DNA of 64,000 nucleotides. Origin: Candidatus Binataceae bacterium. GTDB taxonomy: Bacteria; Desulfobacterota; Binatia; Binatales; Binataceae. The notes beneath the pieces were generated by a model. It did no database searches, was not told the DNA's origin, and saw only the letters and a program-made list of their open reading frames with translations. Location of the stretch: assembly GCA_050736615.1 (NCBI GenBank), contig JBOHWL010000192.1, forward strand, positions 1,865 to 65,864, given 5' to 3'. Positions 11,697 through 63,145 of the stretch are shown piece after piece (the stretch's first letter is position 1; the number at the start of each line of letters is the position of its first letter). The position numbers and the translations under genes were made by a program.

Positions 11697-11760
11697 CGAA
11701 ATGTCACCTCATCTGGTGTTGCTGTCCTAATCTTCAGAGCAATAGCGCGGCAATGTTCCT

Positions 11761-11928
11761 AGCAGGCTGTTGAAAAAATCACAGCCTGCTCCCCCGCTCT
11801 TTCTCTCCCGCAAAAGAGCGGGAGAGCAGCTTGAGGAAAGCAGCCATCTTTGCGCAGGGTGTTGCGGGCACTGGGATGCGGCTTGCGATAAGAACGTCTT
11901 TTTCAACACCCTGCTAGAGGAAATCTCC
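11761..11928 (+). repeat. ~165-bp palindromic MITE/REP-like element, copy A
   Basis: Nested hairpins agcaggctgt..acagcctgct, ctctcccgc-aaaaga-gcgggagag and gcagggtgttg..caacaccctgc. About 80% identical over the full length to 62006..62172. Confidence 0.8.
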
Positions 11929-12200
11929 GCACAAGCCCCAGTTGTCATTCTGAACGAAGTCCGCTTCCAGCGCAGCCCGCAGGAAGCAAGCACGCCAGTG
12001 TAGCGAAGCGAAACGAGCAGGCGAGTCCGCAGCGAGCTGCGTTTTGAGTCAGAGTCTGCGAGGTGTGCTCGAAATAGCGAGGAATGTCGGAAAAGTCGCT
12101 GAAAAGACCGAAAAAACCGGGATACCTCGCTTTCATACGCGCCTCGCGGACTCGTTATTCTAACGCTACTCGCGGACTCGTTCGCTCGGCTTCGCTTGAC
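11929..12200. repeat. composite palindromic repeat segment
   Basis: Contains gtcattctgaacg, the aggaatgtcggaaaag..ccgggatacctcgct unit and direct repeats of ctcgcggactcgtt. It is homologous to the elements at 61863..62003 and 62936..63008. Confidence 0.7.
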
Positions 12201-12228
12201 GTGCTCGCCCCGTCTCAGGCTCCGTTAG

Positions 12229-35693: not shown

Positions 35694-36761
35694 CTATCGG
35701 CGCGCGCCCCAATCCTCCGCCTCGGCCAGTTCGGGATCGGTGCCCGACGCGCTCGCACGGTTCGCGCTTCCCCACAACACCTGCGAAAGGTCGGCGCGAT
35801 GGAATTTGGCGCGGGCCAGCATGGCGCCATTGAAATCGGCACCCTCGAGCTTGGCATGGAAGAAGTCGCAGAACGAAAGATTCGCGCGCGCAAAGCCGGT
35901 GCGCTGACACAACGCGCGGCTGAACTGCGCCTGTCCCAGCTCGGCGCCATCCAGCCGCGCGGCTGTGAGATCCGCCTCGATAAACAGCGCCTGCGTCAGC
36001 GAAGTACGCTTGAGGCTCGCGCCCTCCATTTTCGCCTGCACGAAGATCGCATTGTCCGCGCGCGCCCCATCGAGTATCGCACCGGTCAGATTGGCGCCTT
36101 TGAAATTGCATTGCGACAGATTGGCGCCGCTCAGATCGCATCCCGACAAATCGGCCTCCATAAACTGGCAGAGCTCGAGATTCGCGCCGGACAATTTCTG
36201 TCCAGCCAGTGTGGAATTCATAAAAAACGAAAGCTCGCAAGCCATGCCAGCCATCACCGCGCTGGATAAGTTGGTTTTGATGAGCGTCGTCCGGTGCAGC
36301 CTCGCGTTCGCAAAATTGACACCAGTCAACACGCTGTTAAGAATCGAAGTTCGCTCAAGATGCGCACCGGTGAGATCCGCCGAACTCATATCGGTGTTGA
36401 TAAAGGCCGTCAGCTTGAGATCAGCTTCTCCGAGTTCCACCCCCTTGAGTCCGCAATCAAGGATTTTGGCATTCAGCAGCTTGCTCCGTTCCAAATTGGT
36501 CCGTTCCAGCTTGGAGCGCTCGATCACGGTACGGCTCAGCAGCGCGTCGCCCAGGTCGGCTTCGGAAAAATCCGCTTCGCTCAGAATCGATTCCTCGAAC
36601 GAAACGCGTTGTAGCTTGGCTCCGCGAAAATTCACCTTATTGAACACGCCGCCGGATAAGTCAGCGTCCGCCAGGTCGAGGCTGGAAAAATCCATATTGG
36701 TTATAAGCTCGCCGTTGCGCACGCCCGCAATCAGTTCCTCCCGTGTCATCGCGGCTTCCAA
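35694..36761 (-). CDS. pentapeptide-repeat protein
   Basis: Tandem A(D/N)LxG/A(N/D)F pentapeptide repeats run through the whole protein. Confidence 0.9.
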   Translation of the reverse strand: MEAAMTREELIAGVRNGELITNMDFSSLDLADADLSGGVFNKVNFRGAKLQRVSFEESILSEADFSEADLGDALLSRTVIERSKLERTNLERSKLLNAKILDCGLKGVELGEADLKLTAFINTDMSSADLTGAHLERTSILNSVLTGVNFANARLHRTTLIKTNLSSAVMAGMACELSFFMNSTLAGQKLSGANLELCQFMEADLSGCDLSGANLSQCNFKGANLTGAILDGARADNAIFVQAKMEGASLKRTSLTQALFIEADLTAARLDGAELGQAQFSRALCQRTGFARANLSFCDFFHAKLEGADFNGAMLARAKFHRADLSQVLWGSANRASASGTDPELAEAEDWGARR

Positions 36762-39484
36762 TCTTTAAGCAGGGTGCGCTTGAGATTGGAGCCGGCCAAA
36801 TCGGTGTGCTGGTCGAGTGTCGCGTGCAAAACGTCAGCCCGATACATATTTGCCGCGCGTATCGAGGCGCCGCTCAGAATCGCCTTGTGCATCACCGCCT
36901 CGAACAGATTGGCGCCGTCTAAATTGCTTCCGCTGAGATCGCTGCGCGTCGTCCGCAGCCGCGACAAGTCAGCGCGCTGAAAATCAGCGCGCTTGAGATT
37001 CGCGCCGGAAAAATCCGCGTTCGCGGCTTTCGCTTCGACGAGCTTCGCTTCCTCCAAATTGGCATCGCGAAGACTCGCGCCTTCGATCCCGGCACGCGAG
37101 AAGTCCGCGCCGGGCAACGTGCTATTGATGGTGAAGACCAACTTTTCAGTTCGCACATCGGCAAAGCTCGCATGCGCAAGCTTTGAGTCGAGAAAACTGA
37201 CGCGGCGCATCTTAGCCCCTTCGAAGCCGACCGCGTTGAGCTGGTCGCGCAGAAACAACACCCGTTCCATTTCCGCGCGTGCGAATTTGGCGCCGCTGAA
37301 ATCGCTGTCGATGAAATTAATGTGTTCGAGGTGAGCGGCGGAGAAGTCCGCGTTCGACGGCTTGGCGCCGAGAAAATCGACCTTGTCCATCCGGGCGCCG
37401 GTAAAATCGGCGGCCGCCAGCACCGCGCCGGCCAGCGTCGCCCCGGTGAAATCCGCATCGTTAACCGTGGCGCCGGTAAAATCCGCTCCTCCCGCACAAC
37501 TGTTGTTCAACTTCGCATTCCCGAGTTTCGCTTTCACTAACCGCGCGCGGGCCAGCACCGCGCCGCTGAAATCCGCTCCGCCCAAATCGCTGTTGCTGAG
37601 GTTGGCCGCCTCCATCAGAGCCTCGCGGAAATCCGCGCCGCGCAGGTCCATCCCCGACAAGTCGGCGCCAGTCAGATCAACGCCGGCAAAACTCTTCCCC
37701 TGCTTACGATCCTCCGCGACGCGGGCTTTGACCGCCGCGGCGCGCTCGGCCGGCAACGGCATCACAGGTGGAAAATGATGGGCGAATTTCCGATACGTTT
37801 CGCGTAATCGTTGTTCCGCCTGCGTCAGCTTCTCCCGCAAATCCGGCTCGGCGAGCTGGCTGTCGATCTTTTCACTGGAAAGGCCGCGCGCCTTCAAACT
37901 TTGGCTGAGGGCCGCGAGTTGTTCGAGTTGCCGCGCGGCGCTGAATTTCGGCGGACCTCCCGCTTGAACTTTCGCCTGGGCGGCTAGCTGATCGTAGTCA
38001 ACGCCCAACTGCGTGCAGCGCGCCCGCGCTGCCTCCTCCGCCTGACGGAAGCGCGCCAGCGCGTCAGCTTTCGTGGCTTCGGCATCCGCGCGGATTTTGT
38101 CCAGGTCGAGATTCTCAAGGCTCACCGGTTCGGATTCCGGTGGCAGCGTCTGCGCCAGCGCCTCATCGATCTTGGATGTGTCGGGAGGCGGCAGATTGAG
38201 TTGCTGTGCCTGCTTCAGCATCGCCTCACGCCGTTCAAGGAGTTGGGCCTTCGCGCTCTCCAACCGCTTCTCGGCTCCCGCCCGCTGATGCTTGCGCAGC
38301 AGGCCTTTGGAAGCGATCAGGGCTTGGAGTTCATTCTCGTCCTCGGGAATCACGCCTGGTGGCACCCCTTGCTCCGGCGGCATCAGGTCGCTTTCACGCA
38401 TAACCGCGCGCATCGCGCGCACTCGATTCGCCCGGTCGAGACGCGCCGACAAAACCTCCTGATAGTGGGACGCGGGTTTGGGTTGTCCGGCGGCTTCGGC
38501 GCCCGCGATGATTTGCAGGACATCCGCCGCGTCGTCGGTATTGATCGCCGCAATCCCGCGAAACAGTACGACCGCTCGTTCAAGGTGCGGAAACAGCCAC
38601 AGCGTCTCCGGCACGGTGCGAATCTCCTCGAACGATTCGCCACCATCGACCTTGCGATTGATGAAACAGCGCATGGCTATATCCGTCACACGCGAACTGA
38701 CTAATGGCTTGGAGGGATGCATTCCAGAAATTTCAAAGCTTTCACCGCCCTGAAAAAACCTCTGGAGTTGCTGATCGGCCGGCGCCGCATTGAAAATCGC
38801 CCAGTCCATATCGGCGGCAAAACCGGGAAACCGCTCCGCGAACCACCGCGCGTCATATGTGCCGGTCTTGGAAAACCGCTGCGGCCAGATGAAATCGTAC
38901 GGCTCGAAACTGGCCGCCGCCGCCGGACGGTCGCCAGGCGATCCGATCAGATGCGCCGGATCCTCGATGTTGGGCAGCGGATGTGCCGTTAGGCCGTTTT
39001 TATCGGTCACCGGCGCGACGCCTTTGCCAATCGGATTTTGCGCATATGCGGCGCCGCCGAACGCGTTGCGCCAAGATATGTCCATCCGGGTGAAAGGCGC
39101 CGGCTCTGAAGGCGCGCCGCGCCGCCAAAAGCGATCGCCGAAGACGTAGAGCCGCTTATCAATTGAGCCAAGTTGAAAACGCACCTGCAAGGCCGGCGTC
39201 GGCCGGCCGGCCGGGGAAAAACATGCGCCCTTGATCAAAACCTCGCCGCGCGTTTTCGGCATACCCAGATCGAGTACGCCGTCTTTACCCAGTTCCGCCG
39301 CGATCGTTTTCCACATCGCGGCTTCGGGCAGCAGCCACTGGGGGTTTTCGAAGGGCAAGAACGCCGCGACAGTGGCCGCCAGATAACAGCGCTCGCCGTC
39401 CTGGTAGCTCCTGTACAGCAGCCCAAGCCGTTGTGGCTTTACGATCTTCATCAAGTCTTGTCCGGTGCGACCGATGCGCTTCAA
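36746..39484 (-). CDS. DUF2169-domain protein with C-terminal pentapeptide-repeat region
   Basis: N-terminal ~330 aa resemble DUF2169 (vgrG-linked adaptor family). The middle is a coiled-coil/charged region and the C-terminal ~300 aa are pentapeptide repeats. Confidence 0.7.
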   Translation of the reverse strand: MKRIGRTGQDLMKIVKPQRLGLLYRSYQDGERCYLAATVAAFLPFENPQWLLPEAAMWKTIAAELGKDGVLDLGMPKTRGEVLIKGACFSPAGRPTPALQVRFQLGSIDKRLYVFGDRFWRRGAPSEPAPFTRMDISWRNAFGGAAYAQNPIGKGVAPVTDKNGLTAHPLPNIEDPAHLIGSPGDRPAAAASFEPYDFIWPQRFSKTGTYDARWFAERFPGFAADMDWAIFNAAPADQQLQRFFQGGESFEISGMHPSKPLVSSRVTDIAMRCFINRKVDGGESFEEIRTVPETLWLFPHLERAVVLFRGIAAINTDDAADVLQIIAGAEAAGQPKPASHYQEVLSARLDRANRVRAMRAVMRESDLMPPEQGVPPGVIPEDENELQALIASKGLLRKHQRAGAEKRLESAKAQLLERREAMLKQAQQLNLPPPDTSKIDEALAQTLPPESEPVSLENLDLDKIRADAEATKADALARFRQAEEAARARCTQLGVDYDQLAAQAKVQAGGPPKFSAARQLEQLAALSQSLKARGLSSEKIDSQLAEPDLREKLTQAEQRLRETYRKFAHHFPPVMPLPAERAAAVKARVAEDRKQGKSFAGVDLTGADLSGMDLRGADFREALMEAANLSNSDLGGADFSGAVLARARLVKAKLGNAKLNNSCAGGADFTGATVNDADFTGATLAGAVLAAADFTGARMDKVDFLGAKPSNADFSAAHLEHINFIDSDFSGAKFARAEMERVLFLRDQLNAVGFEGAKMRRVSFLDSKLAHASFADVRTEKLVFTINSTLPGADFSRAGIEGASLRDANLEEAKLVEAKAANADFSGANLKRADFQRADLSRLRTTRSDLSGSNLDGANLFEAVMHKAILSGASIRAANMYRADVLHATLDQHTDLAGSNLKRTLLKDWKPR

Positions 39485-58754: not shown

Positions 58755-58798
58755 ACAAAAAGAAAGCAGGCTGCGGAGAATGTTCCTCCGCAGCCTGC
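58755..58798 (-). terminator. Rho-independent terminator downstream of 58871..60751
   Basis: 13-bp perfect stem gcaggctgcggag/ctccgcagcctgc with a 7-nt loop. On the minus strand it is followed by TTTCTTTTTGT. Confidence 0.6.
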
Positions 58799-61665: not shown

Positions 61666-61884
61666 GTGACGGGCGTGACGCCCCACCAATGGATTTTGCG
61701 AATGCGCCTGCGCGAGGCGGCGCGGAAACTCCGCTCGGGCCGCGAGCCGATCACTGAAATCGCTTTGGCTGTGGGCTTCGAGGATTTATCCAACTTCGTG
61801 CGCAGCTTTCATGAATTCGGGCTGGCGCCGAAACAATATCGCGCGACCGGTTCGTCCATTAGGGAACCTCTGCACAAGGAGTAA
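61666..61884 (+). pseudogene. C-terminal fragment of an AraC-family transcriptional regulator
   Basis: Only the second AraC HTH is present (ITEIALAVGFEDLSNFVRSFHEFGLAPKQYR), with no sensor domain or first helix. Its 3' end runs into the palindromic repeat. Confidence 0.6.
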
Positions 61885-62003
61885 GTCTGTCATTCTGAGC
61901 GCAGCGAAGAATCCCGGATCTCTTGATTTTGCCAGCGCTTTATCTGGATTCCTCACTTCGCAGACTCCGTTCAGAATGACAAGTGGGCTTGTGCAGAGGT
62001 TCC
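61863..62003. repeat. ~140-bp near-perfect palindromic element
   Basis: Left arm ggaacctctgcacaag..gtcattctgagcgcagcgaagaatcc and right arm ggattcctcacttcgcagactccgttcagaatgac..cttgtgcagaggttcc are reverse complements. Related units occur at ~11929..12200 and 62936..63008. Confidence 0.8.
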
Positions 62004-62005
62004 TT

Positions 62006-62172
62006 AGCAGGCCGTTGATAAATCACAGCCCGCACCCCCTCTCTTTCTCCCCCGCAAAAAGAGCGGGGGAGAAGCTTGAGGAAAAAAGCCGTTTTCACGC
62101 AGGGTGTTGAATACGCCCAGGCACCCAGTCGTAATGATCATGCCTTTTTCAACACCCTGTTAGATCATCCCT
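62006..62172 (+). repeat. ~165-bp palindromic MITE/REP-like element, copy B
   Basis: About 80% identical to 11761..11928. Carries the same nested hairpins ctctttctcccccgc-aaaaa-gagcggggga and gcagggtgttg..caacaccctg. Confidence 0.8.
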
Positions 62173-62883: not shown

Positions 62884-62935
62884 GCTAAGCACTGCATAGG
62901 CCCCTTTTTATCATTGCCGAACTGAGTGCGCCTAG

Positions 62936-63008
62936 AGGGAAAGGAATCCGGAAAAATCCTTGAAACGACGAAAAGATCCGGGATTCCTCGCTGCGCTCGG
63001 AATGACAG
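62936..63008. repeat. inverted partial copy of the palindromic element
   Basis: Its reverse complement (ctgtcattccgagcgcagcgaggaatcccggatc...) matches the left arm of 61863..62003 with 2 mismatches over ~38 bp. It is also homologous to 12085..12150. Confidence 0.75.
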
Positions 63009-63145
63009 CATCGATGTCTGTGCGGAAATTCCGCAGCTTTGTTTTTTCCGATTTTCATAAGCAAAAACGCCGGGCCGTCCGAGTTGCGGAGGCCCGGCGT
63101 TTGAAGCGCTGCGAAACGACAATTCGCAGCCGATCCGCTTGCCGA

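What the first reader, a model, noticed from the sequence alone, without database searches (positions are those of the whole stretch)
11761..11928. Novel ~165-bp palindromic repeat present in at least two copies (also 62006..62172)
Two copies are ~80% identical over the full length. Both contain the same set of nested hairpins: agcaggctgt/acagcctgct, a ctctcccgc-loop-gcgggagag stem, and gcagggtgttg...caacaccctg flanking a ~45-nt spacer. The copies lie in unrelated intergenic regions 50 kb apart. The structure and length fit a MITE or REP/BIME-like element, or a structured ncRNA family.
Basis: seen in the sequence. Interest (0 to 1): 0.55.

Follow-up and report, generated by a model that had tools for sequence, protein, structure and literature searches.

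The report
Small IS5-type mobile element (MITE)
The two ~165-bp "palindromic repeats" are two copies of a 151-152-bp miniature transposable element (MITE) that carries the end sequences of an IS5-family insertion sequence and is flanked by the 4-bp duplications that IS5 transposases make; it is an ordinary kind of selfish DNA, here in an uncultured Binataceae bacterium.

Summary
The repeat is real, but its true limits are 11763-11913 and 62008-62159 (151/152 bp). The copies are 77% identical overall: 83% in the 5' 102 nt, 100% in the last 16 nt, and 45% (unalignable) in a ~35-nt loop. All three reported hairpins exist. There it bounds at least 8 distinct 1.26-1.41-kb elements that each encode an IS5-family DDE transposase (NCBIfam NF033581). 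It also bounds dozens of 33-220-bp non-coding elements. Of 32 elements with a non-palindromic left flank, 19 have the identical flank on the right and none has the reverse complement, so the duplication is a 4-bp YTAR target-site duplication, as for IS5. The closest named insertion sequence is ISAzs10 (TIR CAGGCCGCGGAAAAAGG, TSD TTAG). The host is Candidatus Binataceae. The orthologous intergenic region in a relative whose flanking protein is 93% identical lacks the element. Two diverged relatives exist (L257, L140). No Rfam family matches. Verdict: a new family of a known kind, an IS5-derived MITE. The one open oddity is a double-palindrome architecture with a hypervariable loop, shared with another MITE family that has only the same ends in common.

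The parts
11759..11762 (.). Left target-site duplication of copy A (CTAG)
   Evidence: Read directly in the sequence. It is identical to 11914-11917.
11763..11913 (+). MITE copy A, 151 bp
   Evidence: Limits are set by the terminal inverted repeats and the flanking CTAG/CTAG. It scores 158 bits with model R1.
11763..11778 (+). 5' terminal inverted repeat of copy A (CAGGCTGTTGAAAAAA). With the inverted copy of its first bases at 11781-11790 it forms the 5' palindrome (hairpin 1, 11761-11790).
   Evidence: 15 of 22 terminal bases match the reverse complement of the 3' end.
11786..11829 (.). Central hairpin region of copy A (includes ctctcccgc/gcgggagag at 11803-11826)
   Evidence: Folds. The consensus scan lists an 18-pair stem at 11786-11829.
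11854..11864 (+). Internal inverted copy of the 3' end of copy A (GCAGGGTGTTG), the left arm of the 3' palindrome
11865..11897 (.). Hypervariable loop of the 3' palindrome, copy A
   Evidence: 45% identity to copy B against 83-100% elsewhere. No similarity in either orientation. No match elsewhere in the held data.
11898..11913 (-). 3' terminal inverted repeat of copy A (CTTTTTCAACACCCTG, reverse complement CAGGGTGTTGAAAAAG)
   Evidence: The same 16-mer ends IS5-family elements in metagenomes.
11914..11917 (.). Right target-site duplication of copy A (CTAG). An end of the second MITE family follows directly (AGGAAATCTCCGCACAAG..., from 11918).
62004..62007 (.). Left target-site duplication of copy B (TTAG). 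It is at the same time the right duplication of the neighbouring 'element 2' (61863-62003).
   Evidence: The arrangement TTAG-[element 2]-TTAG-[copy B]-TTAG is read directly in the sequence.
62008..62159 (+). MITE copy B, 152 bp
   Evidence: It scores 161 bits with model R1.
62100..62109 (+). Internal inverted copy of the 3' end of copy B (CAGGGTGTTG)
62110..62143 (.). Hypervariable loop of the 3' palindrome, copy B
62144..62159 (-). 3' terminal inverted repeat of copy B (CTTTTTCAACACCCTG)
62160..62163 (.). Right target-site duplication of copy B (TTAG)
   Evidence: TTAG is not palindromic, so the identical flanks show a direct duplication rather than an extension of the inverted repeat.

Best explanation

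Proposed mechanism:
- A DDE transposase of the NF033581 type binds the 16-19-bp terminal inverted repeats, CAGG(G/C)TGTTGAAAAA(G) (inferred).
- It excises the 151-bp element and inserts it at a YTAR tetranucleotide, which is duplicated on both sides. The duplications are shown: CTAG/CTAG for copy A and TTAG/TTAG for copy B.
- Copy B landed in the TTAG duplication of a different MITE. Copy A landed next to an end of the same second family. This is as expected for an enzyme that prefers YTAR sites in intergenic DNA.

The hairpins are the element's own architecture. Each end is a palindrome made of a terminal repeat plus an internal inverted copy, and a central hairpin lies between them. The ~35-nt loop of the 3' palindrome is inferred to be the only part not needed for mobilisation, so it has drifted to saturation between sub-lineages. 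No transposase gene lies in the window, so a cognate transposase elsewhere in this genome, or formerly in this lineage, is inferred and not shown.
For: 1. Terminal inverted repeats and 4-bp direct flanks are present in both copies.

3. In 77 of 123 motif occurrences a second, inverted end lies within 3 kb, giving two size classes: 33-242 bp and 1258-1409 bp.

4. All 8 distinct long elements tested encode IS5-family transposases: NF033581 at 221-285 bits against a cut-off of 140, and Pfam DUF772 plus DDE_Tnp_1.

5. Target-site duplication statistics:
- 30 of 47 short elements and 6 of 10 long elements have identical 4-bp flanks.
- Of 32 elements with a non-palindromic left flank, 19 have the same flank on the right and 0 have its reverse complement.
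- The flanks are CTAA, TTAG, CTAG or TTAA, which is YTAR. This is the known IS5 target duplication (PMC5009759).

6. The nearest named insertion sequence is ISAzs10, at 63% transposase identity. Its ends are CAGGCCGCGGAAAAAGG and CAGGACGCGGAAAAAGG, flanked by TTAG/TTAG.

7. The orthologous pyrophosphatase-LLM oxidoreductase intergenic regions lack the element. This holds for Binataceae relative L254 (93% protein identity) and for L256 (78% protein identity, from an unnamed JGI metagenome contig): 180 bp and 154 bp against 532 bp in the window.

8. Diverged family members sit at other loci: L257 (Binataceae) and L140.

9. Size, inverted repeats, direct repeats, intergenic position and stable stem-loops all fit the published definition of prokaryotic MITEs (PMC10969869).
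Against: - No IS5-family transposase with these ends was found in the 64-kb window or in about 140 kb of related Binataceae/Binatia DNA. Trans-mobilisation in this host is therefore unproven.
- Only two copies are in the window and four family members in all, so copy number in the genome is unknown.
- A base-exact empty site could not be shown, because the orthologous intergenic regions are too diverged or rearranged.
- The L257 copy has no recognisable duplication (CAAA / CCAG). Its 3' stem carries compensatory changes (TT>CC with AA>GG) while its 5' end stays unchanged. This points to some constraint on the hairpin itself.
- The pattern of everything conserved except the loop is not what neutral decay of inserted copies alone would give.
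Confidence: 0.85

Rival explanations
1. The element is a structured RNA. It would be either an independent small RNA or a cis-acting leader, possibly a MITE co-opted by the host. In this reading the three hairpins are the functional fold and the variable loop is a recognition segment.
For: - The folds are far more stable than shuffled sequence on both strands.
- Among four relatives, 6 of 30 pairs change on both sides while keeping the pair. Only 4 of 500 shuffles reach this.
- L257 keeps the 3' stem through TT>CC / AA>GG.
- Both window copies lie 66-85 nt upstream of a gene start.
- Published MITEs can give rise to sRNAs (PMC10969869).
Against: - No Rfam family matches, even at E<=1. The only matches are generic hairpin hits far below threshold.
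- No promoter-like site is present, and there is no terminator with a T-run on the + strand.
- The two copies have opposite orientation relative to the adjacent gene. In copy A the gene is next to the 5' end and reads away from it. In copy B the gene is next to the 3' end.
- Stem conservation in inverted repeats is equally expected for DNA-level constraints: repeated transposase-binding sites, or correction of quasi-palindromes by template switching.
- Four sequences are too few for a covariation verdict, and the control used is known to be exceeded by related sequences that have no structure.
Confidence: 0.07
2. The element is a REP/BIME-type (REPIN-like) repeat, spread by a RAYT tyrosine transposase that acts on single-stranded hairpins.
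For: The element is built from palindromic units. It sits in intergenic DNA and clusters with another repeat family, as BIME mosaics do.
Against: - Direct 4-bp target-site duplications flank both copies and most relatives. REP/REPIN elements do not make such duplications (established knowledge of the family).
- The same ends bound DDE (IS5-family) transposase genes, not Y1/RAYT genes.
- Copy number in the window is low.
Confidence: 0.02
3. This is an origin variant, compatible with the main explanation. The 151-bp unit would be a composite: two minimal palindromic elements (end + loop + inverted end, such as the free-standing 33-67-bp elements L246 and L245) captured ~65 bp of intervening DNA and now move together from their outer ends. 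Different loops would reflect different minimal elements, or recombination at the shared ends.
For: - Free-standing minimal palindromes with the same ends exist. L245 is 67 bp with CTAG/CTAG flanks. L246 (33 bp) has the same ends, but its flanks differ (TTAG/CCAG). L137 and L230 are further short examples with one or two mismatches in the second end.
- Two other families with these ends have the same plan of end palindrome, central hairpin and end palindrome.
- In all four relatives, position 5 of the repeat is C in the 5' palindrome and G in the 3' palindrome. Each end therefore pairs best with its own internal partner.
Against: No YTAR remnants flank the inner ends of the two palindromes in any of the four relatives (CTCC/CACC/TTCC/CGCC after the first palindrome; TGCG/CACG/CACA/CACG before the second).
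Confidence: 0.3

Closest known systems
IS5-family insertion sequences of the IS5 group, nearest named element ISAzs10 (Azospirillum sp. B510)
   Same: - The terminal repeat has the same pattern, CAGGnnGnnGAAAAAG (ISAzs10: CAGGCCGCGGAAAAAGG).
- The 4-bp YTAR target duplication is the same (TTAG in ISAzs10; YTAR for IS5, PMC5009759).
- Elements with exactly the window's 16-nt end encode NF033581 IS5-family transposases.
   Different: The window element is 151 bp and has no transposase gene. Its interior is unrelated to any of the full-length elements recovered. Four bases in the middle of the terminal repeat differ from ISAzs10.
Prokaryotic MITEs (for example Correia elements, RUP, ERIC/IRU, QMITE2), as reviewed in PMC10969869
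   Same: Length under 500 bp, terminal inverted repeats, flanking direct repeats, intergenic location, strongly folding sequence, and an insertion-sequence parent that supplies the transposase in trans.
   Different: - This is a different sequence family in a different host phylum (Binatota).
- GC content is 54-56%, only slightly below the window's 59%, so it is not AT-rich.
- It has a double-palindrome architecture with a hypervariable loop.
Other MITE families with the same ends found in metagenomes here: group a (132 bp) and group b (130 bp)
   Same: - Identical 16-19-nt ends and YTAR duplications.
- The same plan of an end palindrome, a central hairpin and an end palindrome.
- Group a also has a ~35-40-nt loop that cannot be aligned between otherwise >85% similar copies, with co-varying stem arms.
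   Different: Interior sequences cannot be aligned with the window element. Model R1 scores them at 34 bits or less, against 128-161 bits for true family members.
REP/BIME/REPIN elements
   Same: Intergenic palindromic repeats that cluster in mosaics with other repeat types.
   Different: REP elements are moved by RAYT tyrosine transposases and have no target-site duplication. Here duplications are present and the ends belong to DDE transposase elements.

Membership tests
Prokaryotic MITE | Short length (typically <500 bp) and no transposase coding capacity | tested here: met
   The copies are 151 and 152 bp, which leaves no room for a transposase. Only mechanical ORFs cross the element.
Prokaryotic MITE | Terminal inverted repeats | tested here: met
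   CAGGCTGTTGAAAAAA pairs with the reverse complement CAGGGTGTTGAAAAAG. 15/22 (copy A) and 13/22 (copy B) terminal bases match.
Prokaryotic MITE | Flanking direct repeats (target-site duplication) | tested here: met
   CTAG/CTAG and TTAG/TTAG. In the wider set, 19 of 32 non-palindromic left flanks are duplicated directly and 0 are inverted.
Prokaryotic MITE | Ends shared with an autonomous IS that can supply the transposase | tested here: met
   Eight distinct 1.26-1.41-kb elements with the same 16-nt ends encode IS5-family transposases. All come from metagenomes of unknown hosts.
Prokaryotic MITE | Cognate transposase present in the same genome or lineage | tested here: inconclusive
   None is in the window or in the Binataceae/Binatia loci L254-L272. 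The whole genome could not be searched, and the taxon of the transposase homologues could not be obtained.
Prokaryotic MITE | Multiple dispersed copies and presence/absence polymorphism between relatives | tested here: inconclusive
   There are two copies in 64 kb, one diverged copy in a related MAG at another locus (L257), and one in a soil-type metagenome contig (L140). The element is absent from the orthologous intergenic regions of L254 and L256. Neither a base-exact empty site nor a genome-wide count could be obtained.
IS5 family (IS5 group) derivative | 4-bp duplication of a YTAR target | tested here: met
   CTAG and TTAG in the window. CTAA, TTAG, CTAG and TTAA dominate in relatives. 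IS5 makes YTAR duplications (PMC5009759).
IS5 family (IS5 group) derivative | Interior derived from the parent IS by internal deletion (shared subterminal sequence) | tested here: not met
   Beyond the 16-19-nt ends, no full-length element recovered shares sequence with the window element. The direct parent is therefore unidentified, and only the ends tie it to the family.
REP/BIME (RAYT-mobilised) | No target-site duplication; short palindromes associated with a RAYT gene | tested here: not met
   Duplications are present, and the ends are associated with DDE transposases. Window ORFs were not screened for a RAYT gene.
Any curated RNA family (Rfam 15) | Match to a covariance model at the gathering score | tested here: not met
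   There were 0 matches in the whole window at the gathering score. At E<=1, the only matches are generic hairpin hits at 18-29 bits against thresholds of 74-150.

The most novel reading that the evidence does not exclude
The architecture is shared by the window family and by a sequence-unrelated family that has only the same ends. It consists of two end palindromes and a long 3' stem, with co-varying arms, that encloses a ~35-nt loop differing completely between otherwise conserved copies. In the novel reading this architecture is functional rather than incidental. Either hairpin or cruciform ends are required for mobilisation by this IS5 lineage, or the loop is a variable recognition module exposed on a conserved scaffold, acting as an antisense-like or guide-like RNA or DNA.
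Probability: 0.08. Interest if true: 0.6.

Novelty: new member of a known kind. Interest (0 to 1): 0.27.

Why it matters
For annotation, this settles what the two repeats are: selfish DNA, not an RNA gene or regulatory site. It also explains the repeat-rich intergenic regions, and probably the contig breaks, in Binataceae MAGs.

More broadly, one 16-19-nt IS5-type end turns out to be shared by many unrelated MITE families and by a very abundant transposase lineage in soil, sediment and groundwater metagenomes. That lineage has more than 8000 homologues, mostly on 1.2-2-kb contigs. These ends could serve as a simple marker for finding and masking such elements.

The shared double-palindrome plan with a hypervariable loop is a small open question about what this transposase lineage needs in its substrates.

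Tried and rejected
- **Genome-collection scan.** An internal pattern, CTTGAGGAAAN{8,22}GCAGGGTGTTG, was scanned against 185,579 species genomes. All 13 hits were at chance level, except that L009 shares only the end motif. The window's genome is not in that collection, and this scan gave no family count.
- **Viral contigs.** A scan with the 15-nt end gave more than 120 hits with no extended similarity beyond the end motif.
- **Inverted loop.** I tested whether the loop of copy B is the inverted loop of copy A, which would indicate an invertible segment. It is not: alignment scores equal those of shuffled sequence in both orientations.
- **Captured loops.** I tested whether the loops are copied from elsewhere. 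No match beyond 13 nt was found in the window or in 1.9 Mb of fetched loci.
- **Nested insertion.** I considered a nested insertion of a mini-element inside a longer one. It is rejected in its simple form because no YTAR flanks the inner ends.
- **Integron attC site.** Rejected on reading the sequence. The arms read GTTG...CAAC, not the AAC...GTT order of attC R''/R', and each copy is a single unit with target duplications.
- **Intrinsic terminator or promoter.** No promoter-like site was found. The only terminator-like call is the central hairpin on the minus strand of copy A, with a weak T tail, and it is absent in copy B.
- **Base-exact empty sites.** The orthologous intergenic regions upstream of the nitroreductase gene and between the pyrophosphatase and LLM genes are too diverged or differently occupied.
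- **Host taxa of the transposase.** The sources give no organism names.
- **Exact look-up of window proteins.** The pyrophosphatase, the LLM oxidoreductase and the identical nitroreductase P0121 are not on record.
- **More Binataceae DNA.** About 80 kb of further Binataceae/Binatia DNA held no extra copies.

Full report
**Observation.** The two repeats are in the sequence as described. MAFFT aligns them at 81% mean column identity over 231 nt including flanks.

- 11761-11770 with 11781-11790
- 11803-11811 with 11818-11826
- 11854-11864 with 11904-11914

The equivalents exist in copy B. Both strands of both copies fold far better than dinucleotide shuffles (z = -4.0 to -5.7). A 19-nt internal block occurs exactly twice in the window against 0.05 expected. 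The repeat is therefore real and not chance. No further copy is in the window, and nothing in the window reaches an Rfam gathering score.

**Anatomy and true limits.** The outermost bases are terminal inverted repeats. The 5' end reads CAGGCTGTTGAAAAAA (A) or CAGGCCGTTGATAAAT (B). The reverse complement of the 3' end reads CAGGGTGTTGAAAAAG in both copies. Immediately outside lie 4-bp direct repeats:
- Copy A: CTAG|CAGG...CCTG|CTAG
- Copy B: TTAG|CAGG...CCTG|TTAG

TTAG is not palindromic, so copy B shows a direct duplication and not a longer inverted repeat. The element is therefore 11763-11913 (151 bp) and 62008-62159 (152 bp).

Within these limits identity is 77% overall: 83% in the first 102 nt, 100% in the last 16 nt, and 45% in the ~33-nt loop of the 3' hairpin. 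The two loops are unrelated in either orientation.

The terminal motif also occurs internally. An inverted copy of the first 8-10 bases closes hairpin 1. A direct copy, (G)CAGGGTGTTG, forms the left arm of the 3' hairpin. Each end of the element is thus a palindrome of a terminal repeat plus an inner inverted copy, with a central hairpin between them.

**What the ends belong to.** This anatomy predicts an IS5-type element, because IS5 duplicates YTAR (PMC5009759). I tested the prediction.

The sequence inside the motif is extremely diverse. For 77 of 123 occurrences a second, inverted end lies within 3 kb, giving two size classes: 33-242 bp and 1258-1409 bp.

The long class encodes transposases. 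The 360-aa ORF of L208 matches NCBIfam NF033581 (IS5 family transposase) at 284.7 bits against a cut-off of 140. It also has Pfam DUF772 and DDE_Tnp_1 domains. Seven further distinct long elements score 221-285 bits on the same model.

After removing duplicates, 30 of 47 short and 6 of 10 long elements have identical 4-bp flanks. Among 32 elements whose left flank is not palindromic, 19 have the same flank on the right and none has its reverse complement. The flanks are CTAA, TTAG, CTAG and TTAA. This is a 4-bp YTAR target-site duplication, not TA plus one more base of inverted repeat.

The nearest named element, found by tblastn against plasmids, is ISAzs10 of Azospirillum sp. B510, at 63% transposase identity. 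Its ends read CAGGCCGCGGAAAAAGG and CAGGACGCGGAAAAAGG, flanked by TTAG/TTAG. That is the same end pattern with four different bases.

**Host and comparative evidence.** The flanking proteins place the window in Candidatus Binataceae. Best hits are 93-100% identical proteins from Binataceae MAGs.

The window's pyrophosphatase-LLM intergenic region is 532 bp. The orthologous region is 180 bp in L254 (93% identical protein, a Binataceae MAG) and 154 bp in L256 (78% identical protein, from an unnamed JGI metagenome contig). Neither contains the element. L254 instead carries a copy of a second repeat family. A base-exact empty site could not be reconstructed at either locus, because the intergenic DNA is too diverged.

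Two diverged members of the same family were found:
- L257 6417-6570, in another Binataceae MAG, upstream of the pyrophosphatase gene.
- L140 3585-3734, on a metagenome contig, 68% identical over the full length.

A covariance model built from the four sequences scores them at 128-161 bits and everything else at 34 bits or less. A further ~80 kb of Binataceae/Binatia DNA has no copy. A pattern from the interior found no true match in 185,579 species genomes. The family therefore looks sparse and restricted to one lineage, while its ends are widespread.

**Insertion context.** Copy B sits in a precise tandem: TTAG (61859-61862), then 'element 2' (61863-62003), then TTAG (62004-62007), then copy B, then TTAG (62160-62163). 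Element 2 has a perfect 16-bp inverted repeat, GGAACCTCTGCACAAG. This is what results when a YTAR-duplicating element inserts into the duplication left by another. Copy A likewise abuts an end of the element-2 family (from 11918). In the two cases the MITE faces element 2 with opposite ends, which indicates independent insertions rather than one longer composite repeat.

**Mechanism.**
- Shown: terminal repeats, 4-bp YTAR duplications, identity of the ends with those of IS5-family transposase-encoding elements, absence from orthologous sites, and lack of coding capacity.
- Inferred: an IS5-family DDE transposase recognises the ends and moves the element in trans.
- Not shown: that such a transposase exists in this genome. 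None is in the window or in the related loci fetched, and the whole MAG could not be searched.

The element meets the published definition of prokaryotic MITEs (PMC10969869), except that it is not AT-rich: 54-56% GC against 59% for the window.

**Rivals.**

*Structured RNA.* There is no Rfam match, even at E<=1. The only matches are generic hairpin hits at 18-29 bits against thresholds of 74-150. There is no promoter-like site. The two copies have opposite polarity relative to the adjacent gene, which argues against a cis-acting leader. On the other side, among the four relatives 6 of 30 pairs change on both sides and stay paired, and only 4 of 500 shuffles reach this. L257 also keeps its 3' stem through TT>CC with AA>GG while its 5' end is unchanged. 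Four related sequences cannot separate an RNA constraint from a DNA-level constraint on inverted repeats. I put this rival at about 7%.

*REP/BIME.* This is contradicted by the target duplications and by the DDE-type parent elements.

*Composite origin from two minimal palindromic elements.* This is compatible with the main explanation and has some support. Free-standing short palindromes with the same ends exist: L245 (67 bp) has CTAG/CTAG flanks, while L246 (33 bp) has differing flanks. The same three-part plan is seen in other families. However, no YTAR remnants flank the inner ends.

**Unexplained.** Another family with the same ends, group a (132 bp, 8 copies from different metagenomes), shows the same peculiarity as the window copies. 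Everything is conserved above 85%, except a ~35-40-nt loop enclosed by a ~20-bp stem whose arms co-vary (AAATTCGC/GCGAATTT against AAAAACGC/GCGTTTTT).

The simplest reading is selection at the level of the element. Only lineages that keep the ends, the inner repeats and the central hairpin remain mobile, so the loop alone drifts to saturation between sub-lineages. That would imply the inner palindromes matter for mobilisation, which is not established for IS5-family elements. The loops match nothing else in the data held. A functional role for the variable loop cannot be excluded, but I rate it at about 8%.

**Verdict.** The MITE reading is right, and the REP/BIME and ncRNA readings are not supported. 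This is a new sequence family of a well-known kind of element: an IS5-derived MITE with a YTAR duplication, in an uncultured phylum. Interest is low to moderate. The wider points are that many unrelated MITE families and a very abundant transposase lineage share one conserved end, and that these families share a double-palindrome, variable-loop architecture that is not yet explained.

Noticed in passing
window 61859-62007; also 11918-~11965, ~62884-63032; L254 1166-1320: A second MITE-like family, 'element 2'. The copy at 61863-62003 is 141 bp, has a perfect 16-bp terminal inverted repeat GGAACCTCTGCACAAG and an inner motif TGTCATTCTGARCG, and is flanked by TTAG/TTAG. It has at least three copies or ends in the window and one in the orthologous intergenic region of a related MAG. 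Its left end supplies the last codons and the stop codon of the AraC-like ORF 61666-61884.
   Followed up: partly
window 58766-58798: A 33-bp palindrome with perfect 13-bp arms around a 7-nt loop, CAGGCTGCGGAGAATGTTCCTCCGCAGCCTG, lies between genes. It resembles the free-standing minimal palindromes of the same superfamily, and its arm is close to the ISAzs10 end CAGGCCGCGGAAAAAGG. It has no YTAR flanks. Model R1 gives a weak hit of 16 bits.
   Followed up: partly
window 35694-39484 (- strand): The many short direct-repeat families (D1-D6, D12) lie inside two adjacent genes for pentapeptide-repeat proteins, of 355 aa and 912 aa. They are coding repeats, not mobile DNA.
   Followed up: partly
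window 12100-12190: The rest of the copy-A intergenic region (11918-12228) is packed with short direct repeats, for example CTCGCGGACTCGTT twice at about 12143 and 12170. It has no counterpart in the 154-180-bp orthologous regions of relatives, so it is probably degraded mobile-element remains.
   Followed up: no
L258 (GCA_050736155.1, contig JBOHWN010000128.1) position 1: A MAG contig whose LLM oxidoreductase is 100% identical to the window's begins inside that gene, about 150 nt from MITE copy A. This looks like an assembly break next to the repeat cluster and hints that these repeats are multi-copy in the genome.
   Followed up: no
metagenome loci L134-L253; proteins P0241-P0360: The IS5-family transposase bounded by the CAGGGTGTTGAAAAAG ends has more than 8000 homologues at E<1e-30, mostly on 1.2-2-kb contigs. 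The ends bound many unrelated short elements in soil, sediment, groundwater and sludge metagenomes. Host taxa could not be retrieved.
   Followed up: partly
L263/L264/L265 6200-7094: A Binataceae relative carries an IS1595-type transposase split into two ORFs (Zn_ribbon_IS1595 and DDE_Tnp_IS1595). It is probably a frameshifted or degraded IS.
   Followed up: no
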